Part shown: positions 8,165 to 34,703 of the stretch, piece after piece | Layout of the letters: every line of letters starts with the position of its first letter | How positions within the stretch are numbered: the first letter of the stretch is position 1 | NCBI GenBank assembly: GCA_903913885.1 | Contig: CAIWMX010000002.1 | Coordinates: forward strand, 1,862-65,861 | DNA from: an uncultured Bacteroidales bacterium | Lineage (GTDB): Bacteria > Bacteroidota > Bacteroidia > Bacteroidales > FEN-979 | DNA length: 64,000 nt | Direction of reading: 5' to 3' | Notes under the pieces: generated by a model | Databases searched by the model: none | Told to the model about the DNA's origin: nothing | Seen by the model: the letters and a program-made list of their open reading frames with translations, nothing else | Translations under genes and position numbers: made by a program

Positions 8165-8182
8165 TGTGAAACTTGTTTCACA
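8165..8182. promoter_or_regulatory. Inverted repeat TGTGAAAC-TT-GTTTCACA, a candidate operator upstream of the giant adhesin gene
   Basis: Perfectly complementary 8-bp arms about 50 bp upstream of the ATG at 8232, within a ~650-bp AT-rich intergenic region. Confidence 0.45.
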
Positions 8183-8231
8183 ACAGTAAATTGTTTATTT
8201 TCACATCGGATCTATGATAACATATGTAATT

Positions 8232-11200: not shown

Positions 11201-14200
11201 CATGTTGACGATTTGTTCAGATGTCGCATTAAACTATCAGATAACAAGTACAATAACCGGGACAACTTATGCATGGACCGTAACGGATCTTTCGGGCGGT
11301 GCGATTACCGGCTGGAACAATTATCCGGGCGGAGCTGTGTCGATCATTCCGGATGTACTTACAAACAATTCATTGGTTAATAAAACCATCCAGTATACGA
11401 TCACGCCAACGGGGCCGGCACCTGCATTTTGTATCGGGACACCCTTCATTTTAACCGTCACCGTCCGGCCGAAAATAACCAGTACTTACACTGACCAGAG
11501 TATTAATGTCGGGACAAGCACTATTATTACGGGTGCCGTTTCCGGCGGAACAACTGCATATACCTATTCCTGGGCACCCGTCAACATGTTGTTGCCTGGT
11601 GAGAGTTCCCAGGCCAATCCGCATACTGTGATTTTAAATTCATCACAAACCTATACAGTAACAGTTACTGATGGGGCAGGATGCCAGTTTGTAAAGACCA
11701 TAACAGTATCCACCAACGGTTTGCCAATTACGGTTTTACTGACTGCCAACGACCCGGATCTGAAGATTTGCGAAGGCACCATAATCACCCTTACAGCAAC
11801 TGCATCAGGCGGGGGAGGAGGGGGCATCCCCGGGAATTATTCCTATGTGTGGTCAGGATTGCCGGGATTGGTTACCTACATTCAGCCATGGATCGTTCAG
11901 TTTATTCCGGCAAACCTGGGTGGTAATAATTACAGTGTGGTTGTCGGTGACGGATTTACTACGACCATGGCAAGTATTGTGATAACCGTGAACAAAATAC
12001 CAACGGTTACCAGTGCCGTACTGAAGCAGATTTGTTCAGGCGAGGATGTGAATTATACCCCTACAGCCGATGTTCCGGGAACAACCTTTACCTGGGTGAG
12101 AAGTACCAATCCGTGCGTTACGGCACCCGGGGCCAATACAGGAACCGGGCCGATAAGTAATGTACTGGCCAATATCTGCAACACAGTTGAAAGCATCACC
12201 TACACCATCACACCGACCGGTCCGGCGCCAACCCTCTGCATCGGGACACCCCTGGTACTTACCGTGGATGTCATGCCGGTTGCAGCCATTACGAATGCTT
12301 CAAATACCCAGGCTGTCAATGCAGGTTTGCCTACTGTTGCGGTAACATTCACCTCCAACGTAAGCGGTGTGAATTTTCACTGGCAGTTCGCCAGCGTCTC
12401 CTGTCCCGGTTATTTCGGAACCTACCTGACAAGCGGCAACACCTCCGTGATTCCTTCACAAACTTTTACGATATTGCCGGGCGGGCCACCCTCCTGCCAG
12501 ATATGCTACACGGTGAATGCCTATATTATTTTACCCGGGGGCAAAGAGTGCTGGGGGCCGTCATTTACATACTGTTATACTGTCAACCTGCAGCCAGCAA
12601 CGTACAACCTCATTTGCCCTGCACCGCCCTGCGAGGGATCCATCGTGTCGGTTACCCTGGCAGGCTCTGATGTTGGTGTGAATTACCAGCTATACAGGGA
12701 TGGAGGGCTGCTCGCCGGTTCTTCGCAACCCGGATGCAATTGTCCGATCGTTTGGAACGGGATCACATCCGGGGGGACCTATTCCGTTATCGGGACCAAC
12801 AGCAGTAACGGGGTATCGATACCCATGAACAACGTTTGCGTGGTATCCTACAACCCCAATCCGGTGGCAAATTACGTGCTGAGCTCAACAGGTGTTTGTC
12901 TCGGCGACATCATCACACTCAATGGCAGTCAGCCCAATATTAACTATGAACTTTTTCTCAATAACGGATCAACCTGGGAGATTCATCCCGGTCCGGGAGC
13001 GTTGAATTTTACACAAACGAACTCCCCCGGGACTTACACTGTCAGGGCCACCAATATTCTGACAGGATGTTTTTCCTGGATAAACGGCAGTGTCTTGATC
13101 ACACCAAACCCTGTGGAGTATTTCTTTGATCCGTCAGGCGATCTGTGTGTTGGCGATAATCTGAACCTGGCAAATTCGCAAACAGGTGTGCTGTATGAAT
13201 TATGGTGTACCCCATTCACCGGGCCGGGACCAGTCTTTATTAAATCACTCGCCGGATCAGGGTCACCTATATCCTTTGGCAGTCAAACCATTCCCGGAAC
13301 GTACTTTGTACATGCCATCAAAATCAGTACCCTTTGCGATGTTTATTTCACGGACCATAAGATTTTCTGGGCAAACCCGCAGTTGTTCAATGTAACACCC
13401 CAGCCAAGCGGAATACCCAATTGCGGCATGACCACCATCGGGCTGAGCAGTTCGGAACCCGGCTATCATTACTGGGTATACCAGCTTGATGCCTTTGGAG
13501 CCCCGTTGGGTTTTCCATACCCGTTTTTTACAGAGAAAATTGGGACAGGAAGTGCACTTGTATTCGGATCAACGGATGATCCGGGCGAATATGTGGTAAT
13601 TGCCTGGAATCCTGCGAACCTCTGTCAATCCAGGATGAATGGAAGCGTCATCATTCACCTTAACCCTACAAAATACCAGATGGATCCAATAGGCGGACCG
13701 CTCTGTGTTGACCAGGGCGTAGGCCAGGAGATAAAATTATTAAATTCGGATGCGGGAATCAATTATACCCTGAATCCGGTTGGAGTTATTAAAGCAGGCG
13801 GGGCTGTCCCGTTGAGCTTCGGGGTACAGACCCAGCCGGGAACTTATACGGTAAGCGCCGTGAACCCCCTGTCAGGGTGTACTTCACAAATGTTGGGAAG
13901 CCTTGATCTGGAGTTGAATCCAACACAATTTACGATGTACCCTCCGACCGATTTTTGTCCGGGAGAGTATGATATATGGATCAGCGGTTCTCAGCTGAAT
14001 GTTACCTATACGTTGCATACGCCAAATACGGCCCCGATTGCAAAAGTGGGAACTTCAGGTCCCCTGCATTGGGGCTACCTGTATTATCCGGGTACGTATT
14101 ATATTGTTGCAGAATATACAGCAAGTTCAACATGCTCCATTGTCCTGGGTACCGTCCACATAAATCCAAGACCCAACGTTTTTCAAATAAAATTCCAGGC

Positions 14201-17200
14201 TGGAGCGTGTGAGCAGGCTGTAATCGGACTGAACGGCTCACAAGCAGGTGCTACGTATGAACTGTTGCATGCTGATGGTAGCAGCCTGACCCCGCCGGTA
14301 TTTAACCCGCCCGCCATTACCCCGCCTGCTTCTTTTTATTTTGCATCCGCTCAGCCTGCCGGAAGCTATGTTGTTAAAGCGACCAATCAATTCGGCTGTG
14401 ATACCGTCATGAACGGCACGGCTGTTGTATTTCCGCTACCGGTGCCAACCATCAGCGGACCCGCTCCCGTATGTGTGGGAGTCCCTGGTCAGGTTTACAT
14501 TACTGAGTCGGGAATGACAAATTACAACTGGCTTATTTCGTCAGGAGGCTTGGTAACAGCAGGAGGCACTGCCACGAGCAATTCGGTTACCATCACATGG
14601 AATACGGTAGGAACACATACCGTCAGTGTCAATTACCTGAACGGGAATGCCTGTACGGCTTTAACCGCTACGGTACTCAATGTCACAGTTAATCCTGCAG
14701 GCCAGGTGAACGATCCACCCGATCAGATGCTTTGTAACGGGATCATGACTCTTCCCGTTGTCTTTACTACCACCAATCCTGGTACAACAACGTATACCTG
14801 GACGAATGATCAATCCTCCATCGGCCTGGCATCTTCGGGAAGCGGCGATATAGGTTCCTTTGCAGCTATAAATACGGGAAGTTCCCCGGTCATTGCGACC
14901 ATCACTGTCACGCCAAACTCCTCCAGCGGAGGAATCACCTGTGCCGGAATACCCCAGTCCTTTACCATCTCAGTAACCCCGACAGCACAAGTCAACGACC
15001 CGGCTGACCAGATTTTATGCAATGGGGATATCACAACCCCGGTAATTTTTTCTACGAACAATACAGGAGGGACGACAACCTATTCGTGGTCGAATGATCA
15101 TCCCTCGATCGGGCTTGCATTGTCAGGGACCGGCAATATTCCCGGGTTTGCAGCCACCAACCCGGGAAGTTCGCCCGTCGTAGCCACCATTGTCGTTACA
15201 CCGCATTTCTCCTATGGCGGGATAACCTGCAACGGTCCAACCCAGTCGTTCACCATAACGGTAAACCCGGGCGGACAGGTAAATGATCCGCCGGACCAGG
15301 TGTTATGTAACACCCAGATGACAACTCCTGTCGCCTTCAGCACCGGGAACACAGGCGGAACTACGACCTATTCCTGGACGAACGACCAGCCCGGCATCGG
15401 TCTTGCTGCTGCTGGTACTGGTGACATTGCGTCGTTTGCTGCCCTGAACCCGGGTATCGCCCCGGTAACAGCCACCATTTCAGTCACGCCTCACTACGCG
15501 AACGGCGGGATTACATGCAACGGCACTGCCCAATCATTTACGATTACCGTAAATCCCACCGGTCAGGTCAACGATCCGGTAGACCAGGTGTTATGCAATG
15601 GCGAGCAAAGCGCCGCCGTGATCTTCGGGACAAATAATACCGGAGGAGCTACCACCTATTCCTGGACGAATTCCAATACCAGTATTGGCCTGGCATCCAA
15701 TGGCACAGGGAATATATCCGCATTTGTTGTTGCCAATCCGGGTACATCTCCGGTTGTCGCAAACCTCACAGTGACCCCGCATTTCACCAATGCAGGCATC
15801 ACATGTGTCGGACCGGCGCAAGCCTTCAGCATTACGGTAAATCCGACAGGCCAGGTTAACAATACGCCAAACCAGGTTTTATGTAACGGTGGCCTGACAA
15901 CTGCAATTTTCTTTACCACCACCAATACAGCAGGAACGACAACCTATTCCTGGACCAACAGTGCGACCAGCATCGGCCTTGCTTCATCCGGAACAGGCGA
16001 TATTCTGGCATTCAATGCCTTTAACACCGGTACGGCACCAGTGATTGCCACCATTGTTGTTACCCCTCAATATACGATTGGAGGTAAAACCTGCGGTGGC
16101 CCTGCACAATCCTTCACCATCACCGTGAACCCGGCTGGTCAGGTAAATCTTCCTCCCAGCCAGGTATTATGCAATGGCGACCTTGCAACAGCTGTGATCT
16201 TCAGCACGAATAATTCGGGAGGAACCACAACCTATACTTGGACGAACACCGCCTCACCCATCGGGATCGTAGCTGCAGGGACAGGAAATATTGCCGCGTT
16301 TACGGCCACTAATACTGGAACATCCCCTATCATTGCCTCCATTGCAGTTACTCCCCATTTCTCAAATGGTGGAATTGCATGCATTGGCACAACCCAGACC
16401 TTTACAATTACTGTTAACCCAACCGCTCAGGTGACCGATCCGCCCGACCAGGTTCTATGCAATGGCGACCTGACAATACCGGTTAATTTTAATACCAACA
16501 ATACCGGGGGGACTACTACCTATACTTGGATCAACTCTACTACAGGAATCGGCCTGGCTGCCAATGGCACCGGGAACATCCCGGCATTTGTTGCTGCAAA
16601 CGCCGGGACTTCGCCGGATATAGCCACTATTGTTGTCACACCGCACTTCACCAATGCCGGGATTACCTGCAGCGGACCAACGCAAACCTTTACCATCACG
16701 GTTAACCCGGGCGCACAGGTGAATGATCCCCCCGACCAGATACTCTGCAACGGAGCTATGACTGCACCCGTTGTCTTTACCACCACCAACGGTGGCGGGA
16801 CCACGTATAACTGGACCAATGATCATCCATCGATCGGGCTGGGAGCCAGCGGAAGCGGAAACATAGCCTCCTTTGCTGCTATCAATGCAGGCGGTTCACC
16901 AGTTGTTGCAACGATAACGGTTACCCCGCAGTTCTCTGGTGGAGGTATAAATTGTACAGGTCCGGCACAGTCTTTCACCATCACGGTGAATCCAACCGGA
17001 CAGGTGAACGACCCGCCCGACCAGACCTTGTGCAATGGCGATATCACAGCACCCGTAACCTTTACGACCAGCAACACGGGGGGCACGACAACGTATACAT
17101 GGACGAACGACCATCCATCCATCGGGCTGGCATCGCCAGGAAGCGGTAATATTGCAGCTTTCACGGCCATAAACACGGGAAGTGTTCCAATCGTGGCGAC

Positions 17201-20200
17201 GATTATCGTTACCCCTCATTTTGCCAATGGCGGCGTCCCCTGCGACGGGCCAAGCCAGTCGTTTACCATGACGGTGAATCCGGGAGGACAGGTAAATGAC
17301 CCTGCGGACCAGATTTTGTGCAATGGTAATCAGACCACAGCTGTGAATTTCAGCACCGTAAACACAGGGGGGGCAACAACCTATTCATGGACAAACGATC
17401 AGGCATCCATTGGCCTGGCCTCCAACGGAAACGGAGATATCGCAGCCTTTACTGCCGTTAATACAGGCAATGCCCCTGTCGTTGCAACCATCGTCGTCAC
17501 CCCCCACTACTCAAACGGGAGCATTGTATGCAGTGGCGCCTCGCAATCTTATACCTATACAGTGAATCCAACAGGGCAGGTCAACGATCCTGCCAGCCAG
17601 GTCCTATGCAACGGCGATCAGAGTGCTGCCGTGATATTCACCACCAGTAACAGCGGAGGAACCACAACATATAGCTGGGTAAATACAAATACCGGCATCG
17701 GGCTTGCCGCCAGTGGCACAGGCGACATCTCCATGTTCGTTGTCACCAATCCGGGGATATCACCTGTAGTTGCCTCCATCACGGTGACCCCGCATTTCAC
17801 CAATGCAGGGATCACCTGTGACGGGCCATTGAAGTCGTTTACCATAACCGTAAACCCGACAGGACAGGTCAACGATCCGCCTGACCAGGTTTTGTGTAAC
17901 GGAGACCTGACTGCCGCGGTAATCTTTTCAACCAACAATACATCAGGCACGACAACTTATTCGTGGACAAATTCCAACACCTCCGTTGGCCTGGCATCAT
18001 CAGGTACTGGAAACATCCTGGCATTCAGCACTATTAATGTCGGCACACTGCCGGTAACCGCCACGATCATTGTTACGCCTCACTTCACCAATGCGGGTAA
18101 AACCTGTATTGGCCCGGGACAAACCTTCAGCATCACCGTGAACCCGGGAGGCCAGGTAAATCTTCCTCCAAGCCAGGTTTTGTGCAATGGCGACGTTGCT
18201 ACAGCTGTGATCTTCAGCACCAATAATGCGGGAGGAACTACCACCTATACTTGGACGAACACCTCTTCCAGCATAGGACTGGCAGCTTCCGGCACAGGGA
18301 ATATCCCTTCGTTTACTGTCTCCAATACAGGGTCAGCACCTGTTATTGCGACCATTACAGTGACCCCGCATTTCTCCGGCGGAGGTGTTAATTGCAACGG
18401 TTCGGCACAGACATTTACCATCACGGTGAACCCAACCGGCCAGGTGAACGATCCCTCCGATCAGGTTTTATGCACAGGAGCATCTACGTTACCGGTCGTT
18501 TTTATCACCAACAATACCGGGGGCACAACGACATACACATGGGTCAACTCGACCACGGGCATTGGCCTGGCTGCCAGCGGCAGCGGCGATATTCCGGCAT
18601 TTGTTGCAACAAACGCAGGTTCTGCCCCAGTTGTAGCCACCATTGATGTTACCCCGCACTTCACCAACGCAGGGATTACCTGTAACGGTCCAACGCAAAA
18701 TTTCACCATCACGGTTAACCCGGGCGGCCAGGTGAACGATCCCCCGGATCAGATCCTCTGCAATGGAGCAATGACTGCTCCTGTCGTTTTCACCACCACC
18801 AATGGTGGCGGCACAACATATACCTGGACCAACGACCATCCGTCGATCGGGCTGTCAGCCGCCGGAAACGGCGATATTGGCTCCTTTGCCGCAATCAATC
18901 CTGGCGGTTCCCCGGTGATTGCCATCATCACGGTCACTCCTCACTTCACAAGCGGGGGAGTCAGCTGCGCCGGTCCCACGCAGTCCTTGACCATCACGGT
19001 GAACCCGACCGGGCAGGTAAATGACCCGCCCGACCAGATCTTATGCAATGGCGACGTCACCAATCCTGTCCTCTTTACAACCAGCAACACGGGTGGAACG
19101 ACGACCTATACCTGGACAAATGACCATCCCTCCATCGGGCTTGCATCGCCCGGAAGCGGTAATATTGCCGCCTTCACTGCCGTCAACGCCGGCAGCTTGC
19201 CCATTGTTGCCACGATTGTCGTTACCCCGCATTTTACCAGCGGCGGCATCACCTGCGACGGTCCGGTTCAGACGTTCACCATGACTGTGAATCCGGGCGG
19301 ACAAGTAAATGATCCTCCTGACCAGGTTTTATGCAATGGCAGCCAGACTGCTGCAGTAAACTTCAGCACCATCAACACCGGGGGCACGACAACCTATTCA
19401 TGGACCAATGATCATCCGGCTATTGGGCTTCCCGCCCTTGGCATCGGTGATATTGCCGCTTTTACAGGTACCAATCCCGGCACTTCCCCGGTAATTGCCA
19501 CTATTGTTGTCACCCCTCACTACACAAACGGTGGCATTGCGTGCACTGGAACCTCCCAGTCATTTACAATAACAGTAAACCCGACCGGGCAGGTCAACGA
19601 TCCGGCCGACCAGGTGTTATGCAACGGCGATCAGAGTGCCGCCGTAATTTACGCCACAGTCAACACGGGAGGAACAACAACCTACACATGGACAAACTCA
19701 AATACCGTTATTGGTCTTGCTTCCAGTGGCATTGGCGACATCTCCATGTTTATTGCCACCAACCCGGGAACATCTCCTGTAGTTAGCTCCATCACGGTAA
19801 CCCCCCATTTCACCAATGCAGGCGTTACCTGCGACGGGCCAGCTCAAACCTTCACCCTTACGGTTAATCCAACCGGGCAGGTCAATGATCCGCCCGATCA
19901 GGTTTTATGCAACGGAGACCTGACGGCTGTCGTAATCTTTACCACCAACAATACAGTTGGCACGACAACCTATACCTGGACAAATTCAAGCACCAGTATT
20001 GGCCTGGCATCGTCAGGCACGGGAAACATCCTGGCATTCAGTGCCGTGAACAATGGCACACTGCCGGTGACAGCCACCGTTGTAGTTACGCCGCACTTCA
20101 CCAACGCAGGTAAAACCTGTAATGGTCCATCACAATTCTTCACGATTACGGTGAACCCGGGAGGACAGGTAAATCTTCCTCCAAGCCAGGTTTTGTGCAA

Positions 20201-23200
20201 TGGCGACAATGCGGTTGCCGTGATTTTCAGCACCAACAATACCGGAGGAACCACGACCTATACATGGACGAATACTTCCTCAGGCATAGGGCTTGCCGCT
20301 TCAGGGACCGGAAATATACCTGCATTCACGGTTACAAATACAGGAACATCCCCCATAATCGCCACCATTGTGGTAACACCACATTTCTCCGGCGGGGGAG
20401 TTAATTGTCCGGGTCCAGCACAAACCTTTACCATTACCGTAAACCCGACCGGCCAGGTAGCCGATCCGGCCGACCAGGTTCTGTGTACCGGGGCAATGAC
20501 AATCCCTGTCATTTTTATCACCAACAATACCGTGGGTACAACGACATACACCTGGGTCAACTCGACCACGGGTATTGGCCTGGCTGCCACCGGCACTGGG
20601 AACATTCCGGCATTTGCTGCTGTAAACGCTGGTTCATCGCCGGTGCTGGCAACCGTTGTCGTTACGCCGCATTACAGCAATGCAGGGATCACCTGCGACG
20701 GGCCCTCACAGACCTTCACCATCACCGTGAACCCGGGCGGACAGGTCAACGATCCTCCTGACCAAATCCTGTGCAACGGGGAGATGACAGCACCGGTTGT
20801 CTTCACCACCAATAATACCGGAGGGACGACCTATACGTGGACCAACGACCATCCTTCGATCGGGCTGGCTGCCACCGGCAGCGGGGATATCAGCTCCTTT
20901 GCCGTAATCAACCCTGGCGGCTCCCCTGTGATTGCCATCATCACGGTCACGCCTCATTACACAAGCGGGGGAGTCACCTGTGCCGGTCTCACGCAATCCT
21001 TCACCATCACAGTGAACCCAACGGGTCAGGTTAATGACCCGCCCGACCAGATCTTATGCAATGGCGACATCACCAATCCTGTCATTTTTGCAACCAGCAA
21101 TACGGGAGGAACAACAACATATACATGGACGAATGACCATCCCTCCATCGGGCTGGCATCACCCGGAAGCGGCAATATTGCAGCCTTTACGGCCATCAAC
21201 ACAGGCAGTTCTCCTGTCATTGCCACGATTGTCGTCACCCCGCATTTCACCAGCGGAGGCATCACCTGCGACGGTCCAGGCCAGTCATTTACCATCACTG
21301 TGAACCCGGGCGGCCAGGTTAATGATCCTGCCGACCAGGTTTTATGCAACGGCAACCAGACAACTGCCGTAACCTTCAGTACCATAAACACCGGGGGAAC
21401 GACCACCTATTCTTGGACGAATGATCATCCGGCCATTGGGCTTGCAGCCCTTGGCAACGGGGACATTGCTGCCTTTACTGCAACCAACCCCGGCACTGCC
21501 CCGGTCATTGCGACTATTGTGGTTACGCCTCATTACTCAAACGGAGGCATAGTTTGCAATGGACCTTCCCAGTCATTTACGATAACGGTAAATCCAACCG
21601 GGCAGGTTAACGATCCGCCCGACCAGGTGTTATGCAACGGCGATCAAAGCGCAGCCGTGATCTTTGCCTCGGTCAACACTGGGGGAACAACAACCTACAC
21701 GTGGGTTAACTCAAACACAAGTATTGGCCTTGCTTCCAATGGAACAGGGGATATTTCCATCTTCGTTGTCACCAACCCGGGAACATCCCCAGTAGTTGGC
21801 ACCGTCGCGGTAACCCCCCATTTCAACAATGCAGGTGTCACATGCGACGGACCAGTTCAAACCTTCACCATAACGGTAAATCCAACCGGGCAGGTCAACG
21901 ATCCGCCTGACCAGGTATTGTGTAATGGAGACCTGACCGCTGCTGTAGTCTTTTCAACCAACAACACAGCTGGCACAGCAACTTATACCTGGACGAATTC
22001 CAATACCACGATTGGTCTGGCATCAACCGGCACGGGCAATATCCTGGCATTCAGCGCTGTGAACAATGGTACACTGCCGGTTACGGCCACCGTTGTCGTT
22101 ACGCCGCACTTTACCAATGCGGGTAAGACCTGCATTGGCCCGACACAATCCTTCACTATCACTGTGAACCCGGGCGGACAGGTAAATCTTCCTCCCAGCC
22201 AGGTTTTATGCAATGGCGACAATGCCGCTGCCGTGATCTTCAGCACCAACAATACGGGAGGAACCACGACCTATACCTGGACGAATACTGGTTCAAGCAT
22301 CGGGCTTGCAGCTTCCGGGAGCGGCAATATACCTGCATTTCCTGTCACAAATACAGGAACTTCACCCATAGTCGCCACCATTGTGGTAACCCCTCATTTC
22401 TCCGGCACGGGAGTTAATTGTCCCGGCCAACCCCAAACCTTTACCATTACCGTGAACCCGACCGGCCAGGTTACTGATCCGCCAGACCAGGTATTGTGCA
22501 CCGGGGCCCTGACGATCCCGGTCATCTTTATCACGAACAACACAGGGGGCACAACCACGTACACCTGGGTCAATTCCGGCACAGGCATTGGCCTGGCTGC
22601 CACCGGCACCGGGAACATTCCGGCATTTGTTGTGTCGAACCCGGGTACAACGCCGGTTTTGGCTACCATTGTCGTTACACCGCATTTCAGCAACGCAGGG
22701 ATCACTTGTGACGGACCCACCCAAACTTTCACCATCACAGTTAACCCGGGTGGACAGGTGAATGATCCTCCCGACCAGATCCTGTGCAATGGGGGGGCGA
22801 CTACACAGGTTGTCTTCACCACCAATAATGCAGGCGGGACAACCTATACATGGACCAACGACCATCCGTCGATCGGGCTTCCTGCTTTCGGCAACGGGGA
22901 TATCAGCTCATTTACCGCGATCAATGCCGGCGGTTCCCCTGTGATTGCGATCATCACGGTTACACCGCAATACACCAGCGGAGGAGTCAGCTGTGCCGGT
23001 CCAACCCAGTCCTTCACCATCACAGTGAATCCGACCGCACAGGTGAACAATCCTGTGGATCAGATCTTATGCAATGGCATTGTCACCGCACCGGTAGTCT
23101 TCACGACCAGCAACACGGGAGGAACGACCACCTATACCTGGACGAATGATACTCCCGCGATCGGGCTGGCATCGCCCGGAAGCGGTAATATTCCAGGGTT

Positions 23201-26200
23201 TGCGACAATCAATACCGGGAATTCCCCTATAGTTGCCACCATTGTCGTTACCCCGCATTTCACCAATGGCGGCATCACCTGCGACGGTCCTGTCAAGTCG
23301 TTTACCATGACGGTTAACCCTGACGGACAGGTCAATGATCCTCCCGACCAGGTCTTATGCAACGGAAACCCTACGGCTGCAGTAAACTTCAGTACTGTCA
23401 ACATCGGGGGAACAACCACCTATACATGGACGAATGATCATCCGTCAATTGGTCTGGCTTCTCTTGGCAACGGGAACATAGCCTCCTTTAATGCCATTAA
23501 CCCGGGCTTTACCCCAGTCATTGCTACGATCGTGGTCACGCCGCATTTTACCAATGGCGGCGTTCCCTGTACCGGCCCTGCTCAGTCCTTTACCATTACG
23601 GTGAATCCAACCGGGCAGGTTAGCGATCCTCCCGACCAGGTGCTGTGCAACGGCGATCAGAGTGCAGCTGTGATCTTCGCCACGATTAACACCGGGGGAA
23701 CTACAACCTACACATGGACGAACTCCAGCACCAGTATAGGCCTTGCCTCCGGTGGCACAGGGGATATCTCCATGTTTATTGTCACCAATCCCGGAACATC
23801 TCCTGTTGTTGCCACCATCATCGTAACCCCGCATTTTAACAATGCAGGTGTCACCTGTGACGGACCTGCACAAACGTTCAGCATTACGGTAAACCCAACA
23901 GGAGAGGTAAACAGTGTTCCTGACCAGGTTCTCTGTAACGGGGAGCTGACTGCCAGTGTAGTCTTTACCACCAATAATACAGCCGGAACCACGACTTATT
24001 CATGGACAAACAGCAACAACAGCATTGGTCTTGCCTCATCAGGAACGGGTAATATTTTGGCATTCAATGCTGTGAACAACGGTACACTGCCGGTGACAGC
24101 CACCATTGTCGTGACACCGCACTATACCAATGCCGGTAAGACCTGCGTTGGCCCCACACAATCCTTTACTATCACGGTAAACCCGGGAGGCCAGGTAAAT
24201 CTACCTCCCAGCCAGGTTTTATGCAATGGCGACATTTCCGCGGCCGTGGTCTTCAGCACGAACAATACAGGAGGTACCACGACCTTTACCTGGACGAATA
24301 CCTCTTCGAGTATCGGACTGGCCGCTTCCGGGGCTGGGAACATTCCGGCATTTACGGTTGTCAATACAGGGTCTGCACCTGTGATAGCGTCTATTGTGGT
24401 GACCCCGCATTTTTCAGGTGCCAGCGTTAATTGTGATGGCCTAACCCAGACCTTTACCATTACAGTGAACCCGACCGGCCAGGTGGCCGATCCGCCCGAC
24501 CAGGTTTTGTGCAACGGCAACCTTGCTGTGCCTATCATCTTTAATACGAATAATAGCGGGGGGACGACCACCTATACCTGGGTCAACTCCACCACGGGTA
24601 TCGGCCTGGCTGCCACAGGCGCCGGGAATATCCCGGCTTTTGTTGTCACGAATGCCGGTACGTCACCCGTGGTAGCCACCATTGTCGTTACACCGCACTT
24701 CACCAACGCAGGAACCACCTGTGGCGGCCCATCGCAAACATTCACCATCACTGTTAACCCCGGCGGACAGGTAAACGACCCGTCAGACCAGATCCTGTGT
24801 AATGGCGAGAATACTGCACCGGTTGTCTTCACCACCAATAATACCGGAGGAACGACCTATACCTGGACCAACGACCATCCATCGATAGGGCTGCTGCCTG
24901 CCGGAAACGGCGACATCGGCTCGTTTACTGCCATCAATGTCGGAGGTTCCCCTGTGGTTGCCATTATCACGGTCACGCCTCACTATTCCGGAGGAGGAGT
25001 AAGTTGTCCCGGACCTACCCAGTCATTCACCATCACCGTGAACCCGACCGGGCAGGTAAACGACCCTGTAGATCAGATACTATGCAATGGCAACGTCGCA
25101 GCACCCGTGGTCTTCACGACCAACAACACAGGAGGAACGACTACCTATACGTGGACGAATGACCGTCCCTCGATCGGGCTGGCATCGCCCGGAAGCGGTA
25201 ATATTCCGGGGTTCCCGGTCATCAATAATGGAATTTCTCCCATTGTTGCCACCATTGTAGTTACGCCGCATTTCACCAACGGAGGTATCACCTGTGACGG
25301 CCCAAGCCAATCGTTTACCATGACGGTGAACCCTGATGCTGAGGTCAATGATCCTCCCGATCAGGTTTTATGCAATGGCAATCAGACAGCTGCCGTGATT
25401 TTCAGTACCACCATCGTAGGAGGAACAACGACCTATTCGTGGACGAATGATCATCCTTCCATTGGGCTGGCATCCCTGGGCAACGGGGACATCGCGTCAT
25501 TTACCGCCGTCAACAACGGCGTTAGTCCGGTCATTGCCACCATCGTGGTCAAGCCGCATTTCTCCAATGCCGGCATCACGTGTGATGGACCCTCGCAAAC
25601 GTTCACTATTACCGTGAATCCAACCGGGCAGGTCAATGATCCGCCCGACCAGGTTTTATGCAACGGCGATCAGGCAGCAGCCGTGATCTTCAGCACAAAC
25701 AATAATGGGGGAACAACTACGTACTCCTGGACAAATACAAATACCAGCATCGGCCTTGCCACCAGCGGAAATGGAGATATATCCGCGTTTTTCGTTACGA
25801 ACCCAGGAACCTCTCCCGAAGTTGCTACCATTGTTGTGACCCCGCATTTCATCAACGCCGGCCTCACCTGCGACGGAGCGGCACAAACTTTCACCATCAC
25901 CGTAAACCCGACAGGGCAGGTCAACAATACGCCTGACCAGGTGTTGTGCAATGGCGACCTGACCGCGGCGGTGGTATTTTCAACTGTCAACACAGGAGGA
26001 TTGACAACTTATTCATGGACAAATTCTGCACCCGGTATCGGAATCCCTGCGGCAGGTACAGGCAATATCATTGCCTTTGCTGCAGTCAATAACGGGCAAT
26101 CGCCTGTCGTTGCCACCTTGGTCGTAACCCCGCACTTTATCAATGCAGGCAAGACCTGCATTGGCCCTTCTCAATCCTTCACGATCACCGTGAACCCGAC

Positions 26201-29200
26201 AGGCCAGGTCGACCTTCCTCCCAGCCAGGTTTTGTGCAATGGCGACATTGCTGCCGGTGTGGTCTTCACCACCTTAAATACCGGCGGTATCACAACCTAT
26301 ACATGGACAAACTCCGCCCCGGGAATCGGGCTTCCAGGTTCAGGAAGCGGGAATATATCAGCATTTACCACTGTTAACGCAGGAACCTCGCCCGTAGTTG
26401 CAACCATTGTAGTTACACCTCACTTCTCTAACGGAGGGCTTATTTGCATTGGCCCGGCGAAGACCTTCACCATTACGGTGAACCCGACAGGCCAGGTGAC
26501 TGATCCTGCCGACCAGGTATTGTGCAACGGGATACTAACATTGCCCGTCGTCTTTATTACCAACAATACCGGGGGAACGACCAGTTATACATGGACCAAT
26601 TCTGCACCGGGCATCGGACTGGCTGCCAATGGCGGCGGGAACATACCGGCATTCCTGGCAAACAACCCGGGAACATCGCCCGTAGTAGCCACTATTGTTG
26701 TCACACCTTCCTTTGTCAATGCCGGGGTGACCTGTAGCGGCCCTTCGCAAACCTTCACTATCACAGTCAACCCGGGCGGACAGGTTAATGATCCTGTCGA
26801 CCAGGCAATTTGTCATAATGCCATGACAAGTGCCGTTGTTTTTACCACCGTCAACACGGGAGGCACGACTACCTATTCATGGACCAATTCGGCCACGAGC
26901 ATCGGACTGGCAGCCACAGGAACAGGATCGATTCCTGCTTTTATGGCTAATAATCCCGGGACAATCCCTGTAATTGCCAACATTGTTGTCACACCGCACT
27001 TTAGCGGCTCAGGATGGACTTGCGACGGCCCGACACAGTCCTTCACCATCACGGTGAATCCCTTGCCAACTCCCGTAATTACGGGTCAGCTGACTGTATG
27101 TGAGAATGTTTCGTATGTATATACCACAGAGCCCGGGATGTCAAACTACACCTGGAATATTTCTTCTGGCGGAACGATTACCTCCGGGGGAACTACCTTA
27201 GACAATACAATTGGTATTTCGTGGGGTACCCTGGGGTTGAAGACGGTTTCAGTTAATTATAACGATCAGAACGGATGCCGTGGCTCCATGGCTACAACAG
27301 TGACCGTGGATGTTATCGCGCCGCCTGTGCCCGTTATCACCGAAGGTCCTTCCGTGATTTGCGAAAACAACCCGGGTACCTATAAAACACAACCTGGAAT
27401 GACCAATTATATCTGGTCGGTTTCGCCTGGTGGTGTGATGGGGCCAGGCGGAACTACAGTCGACAATTTTGTCACGGTTCACTGGAGCGTACCCGGCTAT
27501 CACTGGGTAAGCATCAATTTTACCGGTCCTGCCGGTTGCCCCGCATCACAACCCACAATTTTCCCGGTCAATGTCATACCACAGCCAACCCCGACCGTTA
27601 CCGGGCTGAACTCTGTATGCGTTGGTGATGCAGGCGTTGTGTATACAACAGAAGCAGGTAATTCAGCTTATGTTTGGACCATTTCATCGGGTGGTTCCAT
27701 CTCAGGCGGACTGCAGTCAAATTCAATAACAGTGACATGGAATACAGCCGGACCGCAACAGGTGACTGTCAACTATTCGACGATTTTCAACTGCACAGCG
27801 TTAAACCCGACGGTATACCCGGTCATGGTTAATCCAAGGCCCGTGCCAATACTCTTCGGCGCTGTGACGGTTTGCGCCGGAACTAAAGGCGTAGTCTATA
27901 CAACTGATCCGGGTAAATCGGGTTATGTGTGGACCATTACAGGCGGTGGATCCGTTGTTGGCGGAGGTGGTGCTTCTGACCACACCGTCACCATTGACTG
28001 GAATACGGCAGGGCCTCAAACAGTCAGCGTTTCCTACACGGATATTTACGGTTGTGATGCAGCGATACCAACCATTCTGCAGGTGCAGGTAAACCCCTTG
28101 CCAGTTCCGACCATCATGGGATCAGATCCGGTTTGTGCCGGATCCACCAGTACTTATTCGACCGAACCGGGCAAGAGTGGTTATATTTGGACAATCACCG
28201 GAGGAACAGGGATTTCGGTGTCCAATACCATATCGGTAACCTGGGGATCGGGAGCTACAGGCAGTGTCAGTGTCAATTATTCTGATCCTGGGACAAACTG
28301 CACTGCAGTATTACCAACCCAGAAGGTAATAACGATCAAACCGTTGCCGGTGCCTGTCATTTCAGGACCCATCCAGGCCTGTTTGAATTCCGGCAACAAT
28401 ATTTACACCACCGATGCCGGTAAGTCCAATTATGTATGGGCCGTTTCAGCCGGTGGGTTAATAACATCCGGTACGGGCACGAACTCAATCCATGTAACAT
28501 GGAGTTCTGTTGGAAGCAAAACAGTATCCGTTGCATACGCTGATGCTGATAATTGCGTTTCACTCCCGACCGTGTATAATGTTGTGGTCAGTCCGTTGCC
28601 GGTGCCATCATTCCCGGTCATTGCCGGTGAAAATAATGCGGTGCCCTGTTTAAACCAGGTATCCGTTTATTCCACGCAAACCGGCATGCAGAATTACATA
28701 TGGACGGTATCGGCAGGAGGCTCGGTTTCAGCCAATGGCACTTCGGCTGATCCTAACGTAACGGTTACCTGGAATTCGGTGGGACAGCAAAATGTCTCAG
28801 TCAGCTATACTGATCCGGTTACAGGTTGCGAGTCGGCAGGTTCAACGATCTTCCCGGTCGTTGTCCAGCCGCTTCCCGTACCCTCGATTACTGGTTCGGC
28901 TTCCGAATGTGTTAACTCAAGTGGCAACGTCTATACAACCGAGCCCGGTAAGTCGGGTTACGCGTGGACCATCGTCGGAGGATCCATCACCTCCGGGTTG
29001 GGGACGAATGTCGTCACAGTTACCTGGACGATACCGGGATTGCAGCAACTTTGCGTAAACTATAATAGCGGCGGGGGCTGTGATGCAGCGCCTCCCGGAG
29101 GTTGCTTCAATGTAACGGTCTCGGTGATCCCGGTTCCCATCATCACGGGTCCGGCCATGGCTTGTGTCTTTGCCAGCAACACCTATTCCACGGAACCCGG

Positions 29201-32200
29201 AAAGACAGGGTACAGCTGGAACATATCCGCCGGAGGAGTCATCACCGGCGGTGCTGGGACGAACATCATCACCGTTACTTGGAATACCCCCGGCACCAAA
29301 ACAGTGTCGGTAACCTATGCCAACGGGAACAGCTGCGTTTCACTGCCCACGGTCTACAACGTAACGGTTAACCCGTTGCCGGTGCCTTCATTCCCGGTTA
29401 TTACCGGTCAAAACAACCCGGCTCCCTGCTTAAACAAGAGCGAGGTATATGCTACCCAGACCGGAATGCAGAATTACCAGTGGATTGTATCCCCCGGTGG
29501 AACTATTACAGCCAATGGCAACTCAGCTGATCCTACTGTGACTGTATTATGGAATTCAGCAGGCAGTCAGAACGTTTCCGTCAGGTATAACGATCCTGCA
29601 ACAGGATGCACATCTGCCGCATCCACGGTCTTCCCGGTTGTGGTTCAGCTGCTTCCGCTCCCGACGATCATTGGCCCGGCTACGGCCTGTACCGGTTCGA
29701 CCGGGAACATGTATATCACACAGATCGGTAAGACCAACTATGCCTGGACCATCGTCGGCGGCAATATTACTTCCGGTTCCGGGACAAATATTATCACGGT
29801 AACCTGGACGACTACCGGGTTGCAGCATGTCTGTGTTACCTACACGGATCCCAACGGATGTGATGCTGCGCTGCCTGGCGGCTGTTTCAACGTGGATGTT
29901 CAGGCATTGCCTGCCCCTGTCATTTCAGGCCCCAATTCAGTGTGCCTTGGTGATACCAAAACCTATAACACGCAGGGCGGCATGACGGGTTACGCGTGGA
30001 CTGTATCAGCCGGAGGAGTCATTCAGTCAGGAACAGGCACGAGCACGGTGAATGTTCTTTGGCAAACTGCCGGTTCACAAACCATTACGGTCAATTATAC
30101 CAGCAGCGGCAATTGCCAGGCGGCATCTGCCACAACCTTCAATGTAACGGTGAACGATTTGCCGGTGGCGGCATTCTCAGCCGACACTGTTTGCCTGGGA
30201 AGTGTTACAAGCTTTACCGACCAGTCAACTTCCGCTTCCGGAACCATAATTTCACATGCATGGAATTTCGGCGACGGTGGAACCTCCCCCGGTATTAACC
30301 CAACCCACCTTTTTTCAAGCTCGGGCATACAAAGTGTCACCCTGACGGTGGGGACTATCTATGGATGTACGAAAACCGTTGCAAAACAGGTACTGGTACT
30401 TGACCGGCCCGTCGCCTTATTCAGCCATTCCCAGTCGGGTTGTGCGGGAGATTCCATTCAGTTCTATGATCTGTCCACTACACCCCATGGTTATATCAAG
30501 CAGTGGGACTGGAATTTTGGCGATGGCACACCGGTAGTTTCGGTCACAGTGCCCGGCTACCAGGATGTCAAGCATAAATTCAGCAACGGCGGGAATTATA
30601 ATGTAAAACTAACGATAACCACCTCCGACAATTGCATGGATTCAGTGGTTGTCCAGGTTCCAATTGCATTCCGCCCGATTGCCAACTGCAGTGCAGGTTA
30701 CAATGCCTGTCCGAAAACACCAGTCCAGTTCACCGACCTTTCCCAACCGAATGGCGGGGCTGCAATCACTACCTGGTACTGGAATTTCGGCGATCCCGGA
30801 TCTGGCATTAATAATAACTCGTACGCTCAGAATCCGACGCATTCATTCACCTCCGGAGGTACTTATTATGTCAGGCTGACGGTGACCAATGCAAACGGAT
30901 GCAGCGACACCCTGGATGTACCCAAAACCGTGGTTGTAAACGATGCACCGTTGGCGGCCTTCACGGCAGATACCGCCTGCATGATGAGCGCAACCCAGTT
31001 TACGGATGCCTCGACGACTGTCTCAGGAACTATTGCTTCCTGGCGGTGGACGTTTGGAGATCCTTCCAGTGGGATCAATGATTCTTCGGTACTTCAGAAC
31101 CCGACCCATACATACAATACCCCCGGTACGTATAACGTGAAACTGGTTGTGACAAATTCACACCAGTGTGCCGGCGATACGACGAAGCAGGTCAATGTGA
31201 ATCCCAAGCCGGTTGCTGATTTCCAATTTTCAGTTGCCTGCATGCATGACTCAACGCAGTTTACTGATTTGTCCATTGCGCCTAACAACACCATCAGTTC
31301 ATGGTTGTGGAAATTCGGGGACAACGGGACTTCGACCCTGCAGAACCCAAAGCATGCATATCAAACAGCAGGAACCTTCAATGTTACGCTGATCGTCACC
31401 AACCTGTTTGGATGCAGCGATTCGATGACTCAGGCTGTGACCGTCCATTACAAGCCGCTGGCGGCGTTCAACTATTCAAGTTTTTACTGCCCTGCCAGGA
31501 AAGTGGATTTCCAGGACGTCTCCACCGCATTTGGTGGGGCCAGCGTCAGCAGCCGCCTGTGGATATTTGAACCAGGGTACACGTCGAATATTCCCAACCC
31601 TACCCATACGTTCACGGTATCAGATACAACCTATGCGGTAACCCTGATTATAACAGATAACCTCGGATGTTCCGATACCATTGTCGACAGTGTACATGTC
31701 AAACCTGCATTTGGGGTGGCTTTTAATTATGATACTGTTTGTTTTGGCGACTCCACCCATTTCCAGGCGATCAATAAAGCACTGGGCGATACCCTCTACA
31801 CGCCGCGATGGGTATTTGGAGATCCTGCATCAGGCCAGTATAATTATTCGTCAAAGCTTTTGCCAACCCATAAGTTTACGGCACCCGGAACCTACATCGT
31901 CTGGTTAAAGGCATGGAATACGAATGACTGTGTTGATAGTATTTCGCATATCGTTAAAGTCGTGGCGCTGCCGGCACCTGCATTTACATATACCACGGTT
32001 CCATGCGATTCGGTGGTACATTTTGCCGAAAATTCGACTGCCGGGTTCGGTACCATTGCCAGCTGGAAATGGAAATGGGGCGACGGAACGCCGCCGCTGG
32101 TGATAATTGCGCCGGCCACTGCTAATGCAACACATACCTATTCATTGCCAGGATCTTACCAGGTATGGCTCATCGTTACGAATACACACGGATGCCAGGA

Positions 32201-33584: not shown

Positions 33585-33602
33585 TTGCTAACAACTGTCG
33601 CA

Positions 33603-34703
33603 ATGAAAAACAGAAAAAAAATTACGGTCATTTTGATTGTGAGCCTGTTTGGAATAATTCCCGGTGTTTATTGCCAGGATATGAATTACACCCAGTATTT
33701 CAGCACGCCGGTATATTATAACCCTGCCTATACCGGAATCAGCAGCGGGTTGCGGGCCAGGTTCCTTTTTCGCGACCAGTGGCCAACGCTGCCAAATCCC
33801 TTTAAATCGTACTATTTTTCTGCCGACCTGGGAGATCGCAATCTCCCGGGTTCCGGCGGGATTGGCCTGATGATAAACCAGGATACACCGGGGGCCGGAT
33901 TGATCAAGAATTTCGGGGCTGCACTCACGGTCGGGGTTCGCATACCGCTTAACAGTTTTATGGTCAGCCAGCTGGGTATCAAAGCCGGGCTCATGCAGCG
34001 AACTGTTAACTGGGGTGACCTTGTTTTTCCTGACCAGCTCAGCGGCAAATACGGGAATATCTACCAGACTTTATTTACGCCACCTGATGCAAATAAGCGG
34101 GTTGTTCCCGACTTTGGCGTGGGAGGTGTTTTACAGTTTGCCAACCCGCAGGGAAATATCAGCGGTAATATCGGATTGGGCGTCGACCACATCTTTCAAC
34201 CCGACGTGAGTTTCCTTTCATCAGGGTCTTCCCAGTATCCGCGAAAGTGGGTTGGACAATTTGATCTGATCATCACGGCGGGCCCTGGAGGAAGTTCTTC
34301 TTCGTCGCTGAGCAGCGGAACCAATGATCCGCTGAAAGTGAATATCGGTGGCATCTACCAGAGCCAGGCCAGCCTTAATTCATTGCAGGTTGGGCTCAAC
34401 TTGCTGAAATATAATGTTTACGTGGGATGCTGGTACAAATCAACCATGACCGGCACGGTGAACACAGCCGTTGCGCTTGTTGCAGGCTACCGCTACTCTT
34501 TCTATGAGGATATGAACCTGAAATTCATGTACAGCTATGACCTGCAGGTATCCGGGGCACTGCTGGGAACAGGCGGAGCGCACGAGATCAGCCTGATCCT
34601 TGAATTTGATAAACTGCAGATTTTTGGCGGTGGGGGCGGAGGCGGATTTATGCCGCGCGGCCGCAAGGGAGGAGGGGAGATAGAATGTTCTCCATTCTAT
34701 TGA
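33603..34703 (+). CDS. PorP/SprF family T9SS outer-membrane beta-barrel protein
   Basis: QD..YTQY...P.YYNPAYTG, RDQW and YSYD..S....G.GGAHEISL motifs. Lies 18 bp downstream of a type B CTD gene. Confidence 0.93.
   Translation: MKNRKKITVILIVSLFGIIPGVYCQDMNYTQYFSTPVYYNPAYTGISSGLRARFLFRDQWPTLPNPFKSYYFSADLGDRNLPGSGGIGLMINQDTPGAGLIKNFGAALTVGVRIPLNSFMVSQLGIKAGLMQRTVNWGDLVFPDQLSGKYGNIYQTLFTPPDANKRVVPDFGVGGVLQFANPQGNISGNIGLGVDHIFQPDVSFLSSGSSQYPRKWVGQFDLIITAGPGGSSSSSLSSGTNDPLKVNIGGIYQSQASLNSLQVGLNLLKYNVYVGCWYKSTMTGTVNTAVALVAGYRYSFYEDMNLKFMYSYDLQVSGALLGTGGAHEISLILEFDKLQIFGGGGGGGFMPRGRKGGGEIECSPFY

What the first reader, a model, noticed from the sequence alone, without database searches (positions are those of the whole stretch)
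14697..27062. Titin-like 7-domain super-repeat with an exact 2,013-bp period, six times over
Seen: the 43 domains cycle through seven distinguishable types. A is 95 aa, one residue short. B mostly has ASPGSG, C has QT.AV.F, D has DQSAAV/DIS.F, E has ILAF...GKTC, F has LPPSQ, and G has W.NSTTGIG. The F marker sits at 16141, 18154, 20167, 22180, 24193 and 26206, exactly 2,013 bp (671 aa) apart. Copies differ at many synonymous and non-synonymous sites yet show no net length change or domain loss. Established: higher-order Ig super-repeats act as molecular rulers in titin, whose A-band has 7- and 11-domain super-repeats. Inference: block duplication is the simplest origin, but the retained register suggests selection for a periodic surface (roughly 25-30 nm at ~4 nm per domain), such as a helical pitch or a periodic partner-binding site.
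Basis: partly seen in the sequence, partly recalled or inferred. Interest (0 to 1): 0.8.

Follow-up and report, generated by a model that had tools for sequence, protein, structure and literature searches.

The report
Seven-domain block repeat in giant adhesin
A giant surface protein of an uncultured freshwater Bacteroidales bacterium has a stalk built from six old copies of a seven-domain block, a tidy but ordinary result of block duplication, not a conserved molecular ruler.

Summary
Window 14688-27053 encodes 43 tandem Ig-like domains of 95 or 96 aa. They form six copies of a seven-domain block with an exact 2,013-bp period, plus one odd domain. They lie inside one 8,456-aa ORF (8214-33584).

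The ORF looks like a type IX secretion (T9SS) type-B cargo. A PorP/SprF gene starts one base after its stop codon. The best structural match of a two-domain model is the stem of GhpA, the Aureispira grappling-hook protein.

The block copies are old (dS 0.66-1.46) and under purifying selection (dN/dS about 0.1). The longest exact stretch shared by two copies is 42 nt, so this is not an assembly artefact.

The "titin-like ruler" reading is not supported:
- None of 119 relatives has a seven-domain period. Eight have periods of 3, 5 or 14.
- A congeneric giant protein has a five-domain period.
- The best ortholog candidate has 15 domains that form their own clade.
- The 96-aa domain length is also conserved in relatives with no super-repeat.

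Keeping the register needs only a fold constraint plus recombination between the most similar, same-type domains, which adds or removes whole blocks.

Verdict: lineage-specific block duplication that lengthened an adhesin stalk. Interest is modest.

The parts
8214..33584 (+). Single ORF of 8,456 aa (about 869 kDa): giant cell-surface protein
   Evidence: It is one of only two ORFs of 150 aa or more overlapping window 10000-32000; the other is a 167-aa ORF on the minus strand. Translation; mass.
8214..14687 (+). N-terminal 'head': hydrophobic signal-like start, then mixed PKD-like modules
   Evidence: Pfam PKD_5 91.8 bits, PKD_4 39.9, PKD 42.8 and PKD_6 26.7, all above their cut-offs. Collinear at 55.9% identity over 2,122 aa with P0064. 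No PDB sequence match at E<=0.001. The signal peptide is read from the sequence only.
14688..27053 (+). Array of 43 tandem 95/96-aa Ig-like (PKD-like) domains: six 7-domain blocks plus one
   Evidence: A two-domain AlphaFold2 model has pLDDT 98.0. All 43 domains have exactly two Cys.
14688..16700 (+). Block 1 (domains A1-G1)
   Evidence: 2,013-bp unit; 71-74% nt identity to the other blocks.
16701..18713 (+). Block 2
18714..20726 (+). Block 3
   Evidence: Closest pair is block 3 with block 4: 84.0% nt identity, dS 0.655.
20727..22739 (+). Block 4
22740..24752 (+). Block 5
24753..26765 (+). Block 6
26766..27053 (+). Domain 43: 96 aa, not a member of any of the seven types
   Evidence: Its nearest neighbour is a G-type domain at 71% identity. 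It lies outside the A clade.
27054..33300 (+). C-terminal stalk and base: about 10 PKD_6 and about 11 PKD/PKD_4 domains
   Evidence: Pfam PKD_4 420.8 bits (11 stretches), PKD_6 228.8 bits (10 stretches), PKD 211.5 bits (9 stretches). phmmer match to the GhpA stem, E 9.3e-8.
33345..33497 (+). Weak match to the T9SS type-B C-terminal sorting domain
   Evidence: TIGR04131 26.6 bits, E 4.9e-6, below the 35-bit cut-off. Pfam CHU_C 21.8 bits, below the 27-bit cut-off.
33585..34703 (+). PorP/SprF-family outer-membrane protein gene; it starts one base after the giant ORF's stop codon
   Evidence: TIGR03519 177.8 bits (cut-off 90.55) and Pfam PorP_SprF 128.3 bits. Coordinates.

Best explanation
The region is the stalk of a giant fibrillar adhesin of the SprB/GhpA class. 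The protein is probably exported by the type IX secretion system and held on the outer membrane by the PorP/SprF-like protein encoded immediately downstream.

The stalk is a rod of 43 disulfide-containing Ig-like domains. In this lineage it was lengthened by tandem duplication of a seven-domain block, through unequal recombination inside the array. The youngest copies lie in the middle of the array.

After duplication the copies diverged under purifying selection on each domain's fold.

The exact 2,013-bp register has two ordinary causes:
- The fold tolerates almost no indels.
- Recombination pairs the most similar sequences, which are same-type domains seven apart, so it can only add or remove whole blocks.

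The copies now share at most 42 identical bases in a row, so the array is largely frozen.

Shown here: the architecture, the seven types, the age and selection figures, the fold, and the different periods in relatives. Inferred: export, anchoring, the stalk function and the recombination mechanism.
For: Gene class.
- PorP/SprF gene directly downstream, 177.8 bits against a 90.55 cut-off.
- Weak type-B C-terminal domain match, E 4.9e-6.
- SprA translocon in the same genome, 2,574 bits.
[quoted passage not shown] It describes sprB with sprF adjacent.

Fold.
- Two-domain model with pLDDT 98.0 and pTM 0.88.
- The top seven VIA rows are all GhpA stem fragments: Z 9.3-10.2, with the best at rmsd 3.0 over 161 residues.
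- Foldseek's top hit is GhpA, E 7.2e-5.

Duplication history.
- Seven clades in the domain tree.
- Blocks 3 and 4 are closest (dS 0.655) and the edge blocks are most diverged (dS up to 1.46).
- This fits the general finding, read in the abstract of PMC1553488, that domain repeats often expand several domains at a time and in the middle of the array.

Constraint.
- dN/dS between blocks is 0.090-0.128.
- It is 0.016-0.033 at columns invariant between types and 0.18-0.21 at columns that vary between types.

Lineage-specific period.
- 0 of 119 relatives has a lag-7 excess of 0.10 or more. Eight have periods of 3, 5 or 14.
- A same-genus 9,290-aa ORF has a five-domain period.
- 13 of 15 P0064 domains form their own clade, SH-aLRT 98.
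- No domain of seven close relatives matches a window type by a margin above 0.042. Within the window, same-type domains exceed other-type domains by about 0.11-0.13.

Length constraint is general. 96-aa spacing dominates in relatives without a super-repeat, for example P0014 (17 of 19 spacings), P0064 (13 of 14) and P0104 (10 of 10).
Against: - dN/dS of 0.18-0.21 at type-distinguishing columns shows that type identity is not drifting freely.
- No true ortholog with an assembled array was found. So conservation of the 6x7 layout within the species group could not be tested. The congeneric head orthologs G014:C176 and G060:C135 end at contig ends. In G014:C176 and G022:C124 the stretch after the head is not this domain.
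- 26 of 119 relatives have counts divisible by 7, against about 17 expected. Most of these rows are 14-domain proteins of about 6,800-7,500 aa with one Pfam architecture. None shows a lag-7 signal.
- P0003 has a 14-domain period, which is a multiple of 7.
- P0064 has 15 domains and the window has 43. Both are one more than a multiple of 7.
- The type-B C-terminal domain match is below the curated cut-off.
- Per-type trees disagree in detail, for example F2 with F5 and B1 with B5 and B6. So some exchange between copies may have occurred.
Confidence: 0.8

Rival explanations
1. One reading: the seven-domain period is kept by selection because the stalk presents a periodic surface of about 25-30 nm. 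The period would match a helical pitch, a lateral packing repeat in a multi-stranded stem, or a partner that binds every seventh domain.
For: - The register is exact over six copies despite dS of 0.66-1.46.
- Type-distinguishing columns are under purifying selection, dN/dS about 0.2.
- They cluster in a few stretches of the domain: columns 19-29, 42-44, 51-66 and 85-87.
- The nearest solved structure, GhpA, is a multi-stranded stem with lateral contacts between Ig-like domains (passages read).
Against: - No relative shares the period: 0 of 119 with a lag-7 excess of 0.10 or more. The periods seen are 3, 5 and 14. A congener has period 5.
- The A-G types have no counterparts in the closest relatives.
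- P0006 has a five-domain period of similar age and keeps its register just as well, with lag 5/10/15 identities of 0.73/0.70/0.66. Register retention is therefore not special to seven.
- In a parallel, in-register bundle like GhpA, each domain meets its own kind, so no internal period is needed (inference).
Confidence: 0.08
2. The array is much older than it looks. Same-type similarity is kept up by ongoing gene conversion between blocks (concerted evolution), not by shared descent from a few duplications.
For: - Tree topologies within types disagree with each other.
- In 150-nt sliding windows the nearest copy changes along the unit.
- Domains of P0064 and of the window each cluster by protein, as concerted evolution would produce.
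Against: - The longest identical tract between any two blocks is 20-42 nt.
- dS is high for every pair of blocks, 0.66-1.46, so no recent conversion tracts are visible.
- Identity falls smoothly from the centre of the array to its edges.
Confidence: 0.07
3. The six copies are an assembly artefact, such as a mis-joined or over-expanded repeat in a metagenome assembly.
For: - The genome is a 140-contig draft.
- One contig in run X6 joins 23157 to 25171, skipping exactly 2,013 bases. One contig in run X4 goes back 5,751 bases.
Against: - Blocks differ at 16-29% of bases and share at most 42 identical bases in a row, so reads place uniquely.
- All 30 bins of 13500-28500 are covered in 4 of 4 runs from 3 studies. 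The 32 listed pieces show 0 other letters; 120 more pieces were not shown.
- The two odd joints lie on shared stretches of 37 and 32 nt. 37 nt is exactly the longest shared stretch between blocks 5 and 6. My recollection that Logan assemblies use 31-mers would make these graph ambiguities.
- The reading frame stays open for 25 kb.
Confidence: 0.02

Closest known systems
GhpA, grappling hook protein A of Aureispira sp. CCB-QB1 (PDB 9flw, 9flp, 9fly and others; bioRxiv 10.1101/2024.01.29.577165, passages read)
   Same: - Both are giant Bacteroidota proteins: GhpA has 5,898 aa and this protein has 8,456 aa.
- Both have an N-terminal head, a long stem of slightly varying Ig-like repeats (52 in GhpA), a C-terminal T9SS sorting domain and a PorP homolog gene downstream.
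- GhpA is the best structural match of the two-domain model: Z 10.2, rmsd 3.0, 161 of 192 residues aligned, 19% identity.
- The C-terminal PKD_6 region matches the GhpA stem by sequence, E 9.3e-8.
   Different: - The 96-aa array domain has no sequence match to GhpA: a profile search of the PDB gave no GhpA row at E<=1.
- GhpA has a PorE homolog after its PorP homolog. Here the two ORFs after the PorP-like gene show no such family.
- Heptamer formation and prey capture are not testable here.
[quoted passage not shown]
SprB with SprF of Flavobacterium johnsoniae (gliding adhesin and its cognate PorP-like protein; PMC9143113, passages read)
   Same: A highly repetitive giant type-B cargo (SprB is 669 kDa) with the PorP-like gene adjacent and no porE-like gene next to it. 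That paper postulates this layout for mobile adhesins.
   Different: The Pfam SprB repeat (PF13573) was not found in the three pieces scanned: aa 1-2161, 2162-2832 and 6284-8456. It is present in a different, neighbouring ORF at 299-3460. A role in gliding was not tested.
Titin A-band and nebulin super-repeats
   Same: Domains at the same position in successive super-repeats resemble each other more than their neighbours: 0.77 against 0.64-0.67 identity. Nebulin also expanded in units of seven domains (abstract of PMC1553488).
   Different: The titin and nebulin periods are conserved across species and match a periodic partner filament; this is recalled knowledge, not checked here. In this family the period differs between relatives (3, 5, 7 or 14) or is absent. 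No partner is known.
Periscope proteins (PMC8201768, passages read)
   Same: A rod of tandem domains that projects a distal head from the cell surface. Its length is set by the number of repeats.
   Different: In the passages read, Periscope repeats are 'highly identical', with high DNA identity proposed to allow frequent gain and loss. Here the blocks are 71-84% identical in DNA and adjacent domains about 66% identical in protein.

Membership tests
T9SS type-B cargo protein | C-terminal type-B sorting domain (TIGR04131 / Pfam CHU_C) | tested here: inconclusive
   TIGR04131 26.6 bits against a 35 cut-off, E 4.9e-6. CHU_C 21.8 bits against 27. Most listed relatives carry precomputed PF13585.
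T9SS type-B cargo protein | Cognate PorP/SprF-family gene next to it | tested here: met
   ORF 33585-34703 scores 177.8 bits on TIGR03519 against a 90.55 cut-off. It starts one base after the giant ORF's stop codon.
T9SS type-B cargo protein | T9SS machinery in the genome | tested here: met
   SprA (TIGR04189) at 2,574 bits in G000:C76. Only this one component was searched.
T9SS type-B cargo protein | N-terminal Sec signal peptide | not tested
   A hydrophobic N-terminus is visible in the translation. No signal-peptide predictor was run.
SprB family | SprB repeats (PF13573) | tested here: not met
   No PF13573 hit at E<=0.01 in aa 1-2161, 2162-2832 or 6284-8456. The other five blocks are close copies of the one scanned.
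GhpA-like grappling hook | Stem of tandem Ig-like domains with GhpA-like fold and inter-domain geometry | tested here: met
   The top seven VIA rows are all GhpA, Z 9.3-10.2. Unrelated eukaryotic Ig tandems follow at Z of about 9, so the margin is small.
GhpA-like grappling hook | PorP and PorE homologs downstream | tested here: not met
   The PorP homolog is present. The next two ORFs give a weak REP tyrosine transposase match (46.7 bits against 80) and RlmF; neither scan lists a PorE-like or OmpA family.
GhpA-like grappling hook | Heptameric hollow stem | not testable with these tools
   No oligomer prediction was run. The array is far above the size limit of the complex tool.
Titin-like ruler super-repeat | Position-specific domain types that recur with a fixed period | tested here: met
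Titin-like ruler super-repeat | Period conserved in relatives | tested here: not met
   0 of 119 relatives has a lag-7 excess of 0.10 or more. A congener has period 5. P0064 has no period.
Titin-like ruler super-repeat | Partner structure with a matching period | not testable with these tools
   None is known.
Periscope proteins | Tandem repeats that are highly identical in DNA | tested here: not met
   Blocks are 71.3-84.0% identical in DNA, with a longest shared exact string of 42 nt.
Periscope proteins | Repeat number varies between strains | tested here: inconclusive
   One contig in 1 of 4 runs skips exactly 2,013 bases at a shared 37-mer. This may be a variant or an assembly-graph artefact.
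Pfam PKD-like domains (PKD_6 PF19408, PKD_5 PF19406) | Score above the gathering threshold | tested here: inconclusive
   Of the 43 array domains scanned singly at E<=10, 7 match PKD_6 (best E 6e-4) and 5 match PKD_5 (best E 0.0029). The member-1 table and the whole-block scan show no PKD family above cut-off.

The most novel reading that the evidence does not exclude
The seven-domain period may be functional. The stalk may assemble into a multi-stranded or twisted stem like the GhpA grappling hook. The seven domain types would then give a 2,013-bp-encoded axial repeat of roughly 25-30 nm that sets a lateral stagger or binds a periodic partner. In that case the different periods of relatives (3, 5, 14) would mark different stem geometries, not accidents of duplication.
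Probability: 0.07. Interest if true: 0.6.

Novelty: new member of a known kind. Interest (0 to 1): 0.3.

Why it matters
This is a clean bacterial example of multi-domain block duplication in a giant surface protein.

It offers three things:
- The 96-aa stalk domain is not captured above threshold by Pfam or NCBIfam, although it is abundant. 244 giant proteins match it in the one protein search run here.
- It adds a case of a GhpA-like Ig stem outside the predatory Saprospiria.
- It shows that an exact register over 12 kb does not by itself indicate a ruler.

If the period did prove functional, it would be the first bacterial counterpart of the titin and nebulin rulers. The present evidence speaks against that.

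Tried and rejected
- Tandem Repeats Finder gave 0 rows because its longest period is 500.
- A single-domain AlphaFold2 model built on the 43 window domains alone was poor (pLDDT 59.9), and I did not use it for fold search. A 150-row, two-domain alignment fixed this.
- A profile of the array domain against PDB sequences gave only two chance-level rows, E 0.096 and 0.4.
- The N-terminal head had no PDB sequence match at E<=0.001.
- The search for true orthologs with assembled arrays failed. Head matches in congeners G014:C176 and G060:C135 run to contig ends. In G014:C176 and G022:C124 the stretch after the head is another module. None of the five loci L024-L028 has an array-domain hit at E<=1e-3.
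- Five further genomes, reached through PorP relatives, gave no array longer than about 16 domains in one ORF. One of them matches G018 place for place.
- Mapping relatives' domains onto types A-G gave margins of 0.042 or less, so there is no correspondence.
- The earlier-findings tool was not open.
- Logan contigs are too short (0.6-3 kb over the array) to confirm the order of the blocks. They confirm only that every part is present and identical.
- Domain rise and a seven-domain model were not computed.
- Literature searches for 'super-repeat' with bacterial surface proteins, and for 'higher-order repeat' with giant or Bacteroidetes proteins, listed no paper whose title or abstract describes such a period in a T9SS adhesin. 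The one paper that holds 'super-repeat' with 'surface protein' and 'bacterium' is a Lactobacillus review, which I did not read.

Full report
**Observation.** The window holds one 8,456-aa ORF at 8214-33584 on the plus strand. DNA self-comparison over 14000-28000 peaks at lag 2013 (70.2% identity). The next peaks are at 4026 (66.8%) and 6039 (63.4%). The one-domain lag of 288 gives 57.1%. At protein level, lag 671 gives 77.6% and lag 96 gives 58.9%.

Identity at lag 2013 is 0.64-0.87 in every 300-nt bin from 14701 to 24900. It drops to 0.23-0.30 on both sides and is highest in the middle of the array.

Cutting at the recurring ...TITVNP boundary gives 43 domains at aa 2159-6280, which is nt 14688-27053. 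Six have 95 aa (d1, 8, 15, 22, 29, 36) and 37 have 96 aa. There is no other indel. The LPPSQ marker recurs at 16149 and then every 2,013 bases, six times.

Same-type domains average 0.77 identity, against 0.64-0.67 for all other offsets. 42 of 43 domains have a same-type nearest neighbour. A DNA maximum-likelihood tree recovers the types. B, C, D, F and G are on starred branches, E has support 94/87, and the six 95-aa A domains have 100/94.

**The gene and its setting.** The head (aa 1-2158) carries PKD_5, PKD_4, PKD and PKD_6 matches. The part after the array carries about 10 PKD_6 and about 11 PKD/PKD_4 domains. The last 200 aa give a sub-threshold match to the T9SS type-B sorting domain (TIGR04131, 26.6 bits against 35, E 4.9e-6).

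The next ORF (33585-34703) starts one base after the stop codon. It is a PorP/SprF-family protein at 177.8 bits against a 90.55 cut-off. The same genome encodes the SprA translocon at 2,574 bits.

[quoted passage not shown] It proposes that PorP-like proteins anchor those proteins to the cell surface. It postulates that mobile adhesins such as SprB have a PorP-like partner but no PorE-like one. The two ORFs after the PorP-like gene show no PorE-like family.

PorP relatives at 49-84% identity lie in MAGs labelled Bacteroidales, Bacteroidota, Prolixibacteraceae or Draconibacterium. The DNA of the array occurs in freshwater and lake metagenomes: 10 runs from 4 studies hold half or more of the sampled words, and one of those runs may be the source of this DNA.

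**The domain.** One whole block gave no Pfam or NCBIfam family at E<=0.01 other than a weak, sub-threshold DUF4847 row. Scanned one by one at E<=10, 7 of 43 domains touch PKD_6 (best E 6e-4) and 5 of 43 touch PKD_5.

A first model built on 43 rows was poor, with pLDDT 59.9. A two-domain model (d18+d19) on a 150-row alignment, made with domain pairs from same-genus genomes, reached pLDDT 98.0 and pTM 0.88. It is all-beta.

Foldseek's best PDB match is GhpA, the grappling-hook protein of Aureispira, at E 7.2e-5. In the VIA re-alignment the top seven rows are all GhpA stem, neck or base fragments. Their Z scores are 9.3-10.2, and the best has rmsd 3.0 over 161 of 192 residues at 19% identity. Eukaryotic Ig tandems follow at Z of about 9. 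The PKD_6 part of the C-terminal region also matches the GhpA stem by sequence, E 9.3e-8.

In passages read, GhpA is a 5,898-aa T9SS substrate. [quoted passage not shown] PorP and PorE homolog genes lie downstream, and it forms a heptameric hollow stem.

All 43 domains here have exactly two Cys. The array contains 0.2% Glu, 0.2% Lys and 0.0% Arg.

**Age and selection.** Between blocks, DNA identity is 71.3-84.0%, dN is 0.066-0.184, dS is 0.655-1.462 and dN/dS is 0.090-0.128 (Nei-Gojobori, 15 pairs). Blocks 3 and 4 are the closest pair and the edge blocks are the most diverged. The longest exact string shared by two blocks is 20-42 nt.

I defined 'type-varying' columns from one block and measured selection among the other five. 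This gives dN/dS of 0.18-0.21 at 52-61 varying columns, and 0.016-0.033 at 35-44 invariant columns. So type-specific residues are not neutral. That value is ordinary for variable positions of a folded domain. Sixteen columns carry more than 1 bit of type information; they are columns 19, 20, 23, 27, 29, 42-44, 51, 57, 58, 60, 62, 66, 85 and 87.

**Relatives.** A search with one block found 244 giant proteins at E<=1e-3 among 601 scored. None except the window's own truncated copy, P0001, exceeds 67% identity. P0001 is identical over 6,326 aa and lies on a 37-kb contig.

I ran an HMM of the 43 domains over the 119 other listed proteins. They have 10-54 full domains. None has a lag-7 excess of 0.10 or more; the maximum is 0.05. 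Eight have clear higher-order periods: 5 domains in five proteins, 3 in two, and 14 in one.

Counts divisible by 7 occur in 26 of 119 proteins, against about 17 expected. Most of these rows are 14-domain proteins of about 6,800-7,500 aa with one Pfam architecture and no internal period.

In whole genomes, 21 of 24 same-genus genomes and 1 of 16 other genomes of the order carry the domain. A 9,290-aa ORF in G022 has a five-domain period of about 482 aa. Other congeners have 10-18 domains without a period.

P0064 is the only full-length protein with a collinear head (55.9% identity over 2,122 aa). It has 15 domains, and 13 of them form their own clade with SH-aLRT 98. No domain of seven close relatives matches a window type by a margin above 0.042.

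Head orthologs in congeners run to contig ends (G014:C176, G060:C135) or are followed by a different module (G014:C176, G022:C124). So the 6x7 layout is known from one species-level lineage only.

**Assembly.** Contigs from four runs in three studies cover all 30 bins of 13500-28500, and the listed pieces show no differing letters. Two odd joints were seen. One skips exactly 2,013 bases and one goes back 5,751 bases. They lie on shared 37-nt and 32-nt stretches, so they may be graph ambiguities or rare variants. With 16-29% divergence between blocks, a collapse or over-expansion artefact is very unlikely.

**Reading.** All features fit lineage-specific tandem duplication of a seven-domain block, followed by divergence under fold constraint.
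- The 96-aa length is equally conserved in relatives that have no super-repeat.
- Arrays with other periods keep their register equally well. P0006, for example, has lag 5/10/15 identities of 0.73/0.70/0.66.
- Unequal recombination pairs the most similar sequences, which are same-type domains. It therefore changes the array only in whole blocks (inference).
- Expansion by several domains at a time, and in the middle of the array, is the common pattern for domain repeats (abstract of PMC1553488).

The likely function of the array is to act as a stalk. It would project the 2,150-aa head far from the cell, by analogy with GhpA and fibrillar adhesins (inference).

**Verdict.** Block duplication as the origin is supported, and the ruler interpretation is not. 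This is a new member of a known kind, and interest is modest.

Noticed in passing
window 14688-27053 (aa 2159-6280): The 4,122-aa array has almost no charged residues except Asp: Glu 0.2%, Lys 0.2%, Arg 0.0%, Asp 3.5%. Thr is 17.7%. The recalled Bacteroidota O-glycosylation motif D-(S/T)-(A/I/L/M/T/V) occurs 0 times in the array but 26 times in the C-terminal 2,176 aa.
   Followed up: partly
window 299-3460 (+): A separate 1,053-aa ORF has six SprB repeats (PF13573, 191.8 bits) and a T9SS type-A sorting domain. It is a second T9SS surface protein, a few kb upstream of the giant gene.
   Followed up: no
window 34776-35339 (+): A 187-aa ORF just after the PorP-like gene gives a sub-threshold match to a REP-associated tyrosine transposase (46.7 bits against an 80-bit cut-off).
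   Followed up: no
L011-L013 (G022:C111:25525-53394, minus strand): A same-genus genome encodes a 9,290-aa ORF whose stalk has a five-domain super-repeat of about 482 aa. In each unit, four domains score in full on the window's domain model and one does not.
   Followed up: partly
P0024, P0049, P0067, P0072, P0075, P0077, P0079, P0080, P0084-P0087, P0089, P0092, P0094, P0098, P0099 and similar: A group of proteins of about 6,800-7,500 aa, one of them labelled Flavobacteriaceae, all have a run of exactly 14 of these domains with no internal period. The count looks conserved within that clade.
   Followed up: no
window 23157-25171 in run X6; 25616 back to 19866 in run X4: One Logan contig joins across exactly one 2,013-bp unit at a shared 37-nt stretch. 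Another jumps back 5,751 bases at a shared 32-nt stretch. Each could be a real length variant or an assembly-graph artefact.
   Followed up: partly
L024 (G014:C176) and L026 (G022:C124): Congeneric proteins share the window protein's head at 44-52% identity. After the head they continue with a different Ig-like module in place of the 96-aa array, which points to module shuffling in this family.
   Followed up: partly
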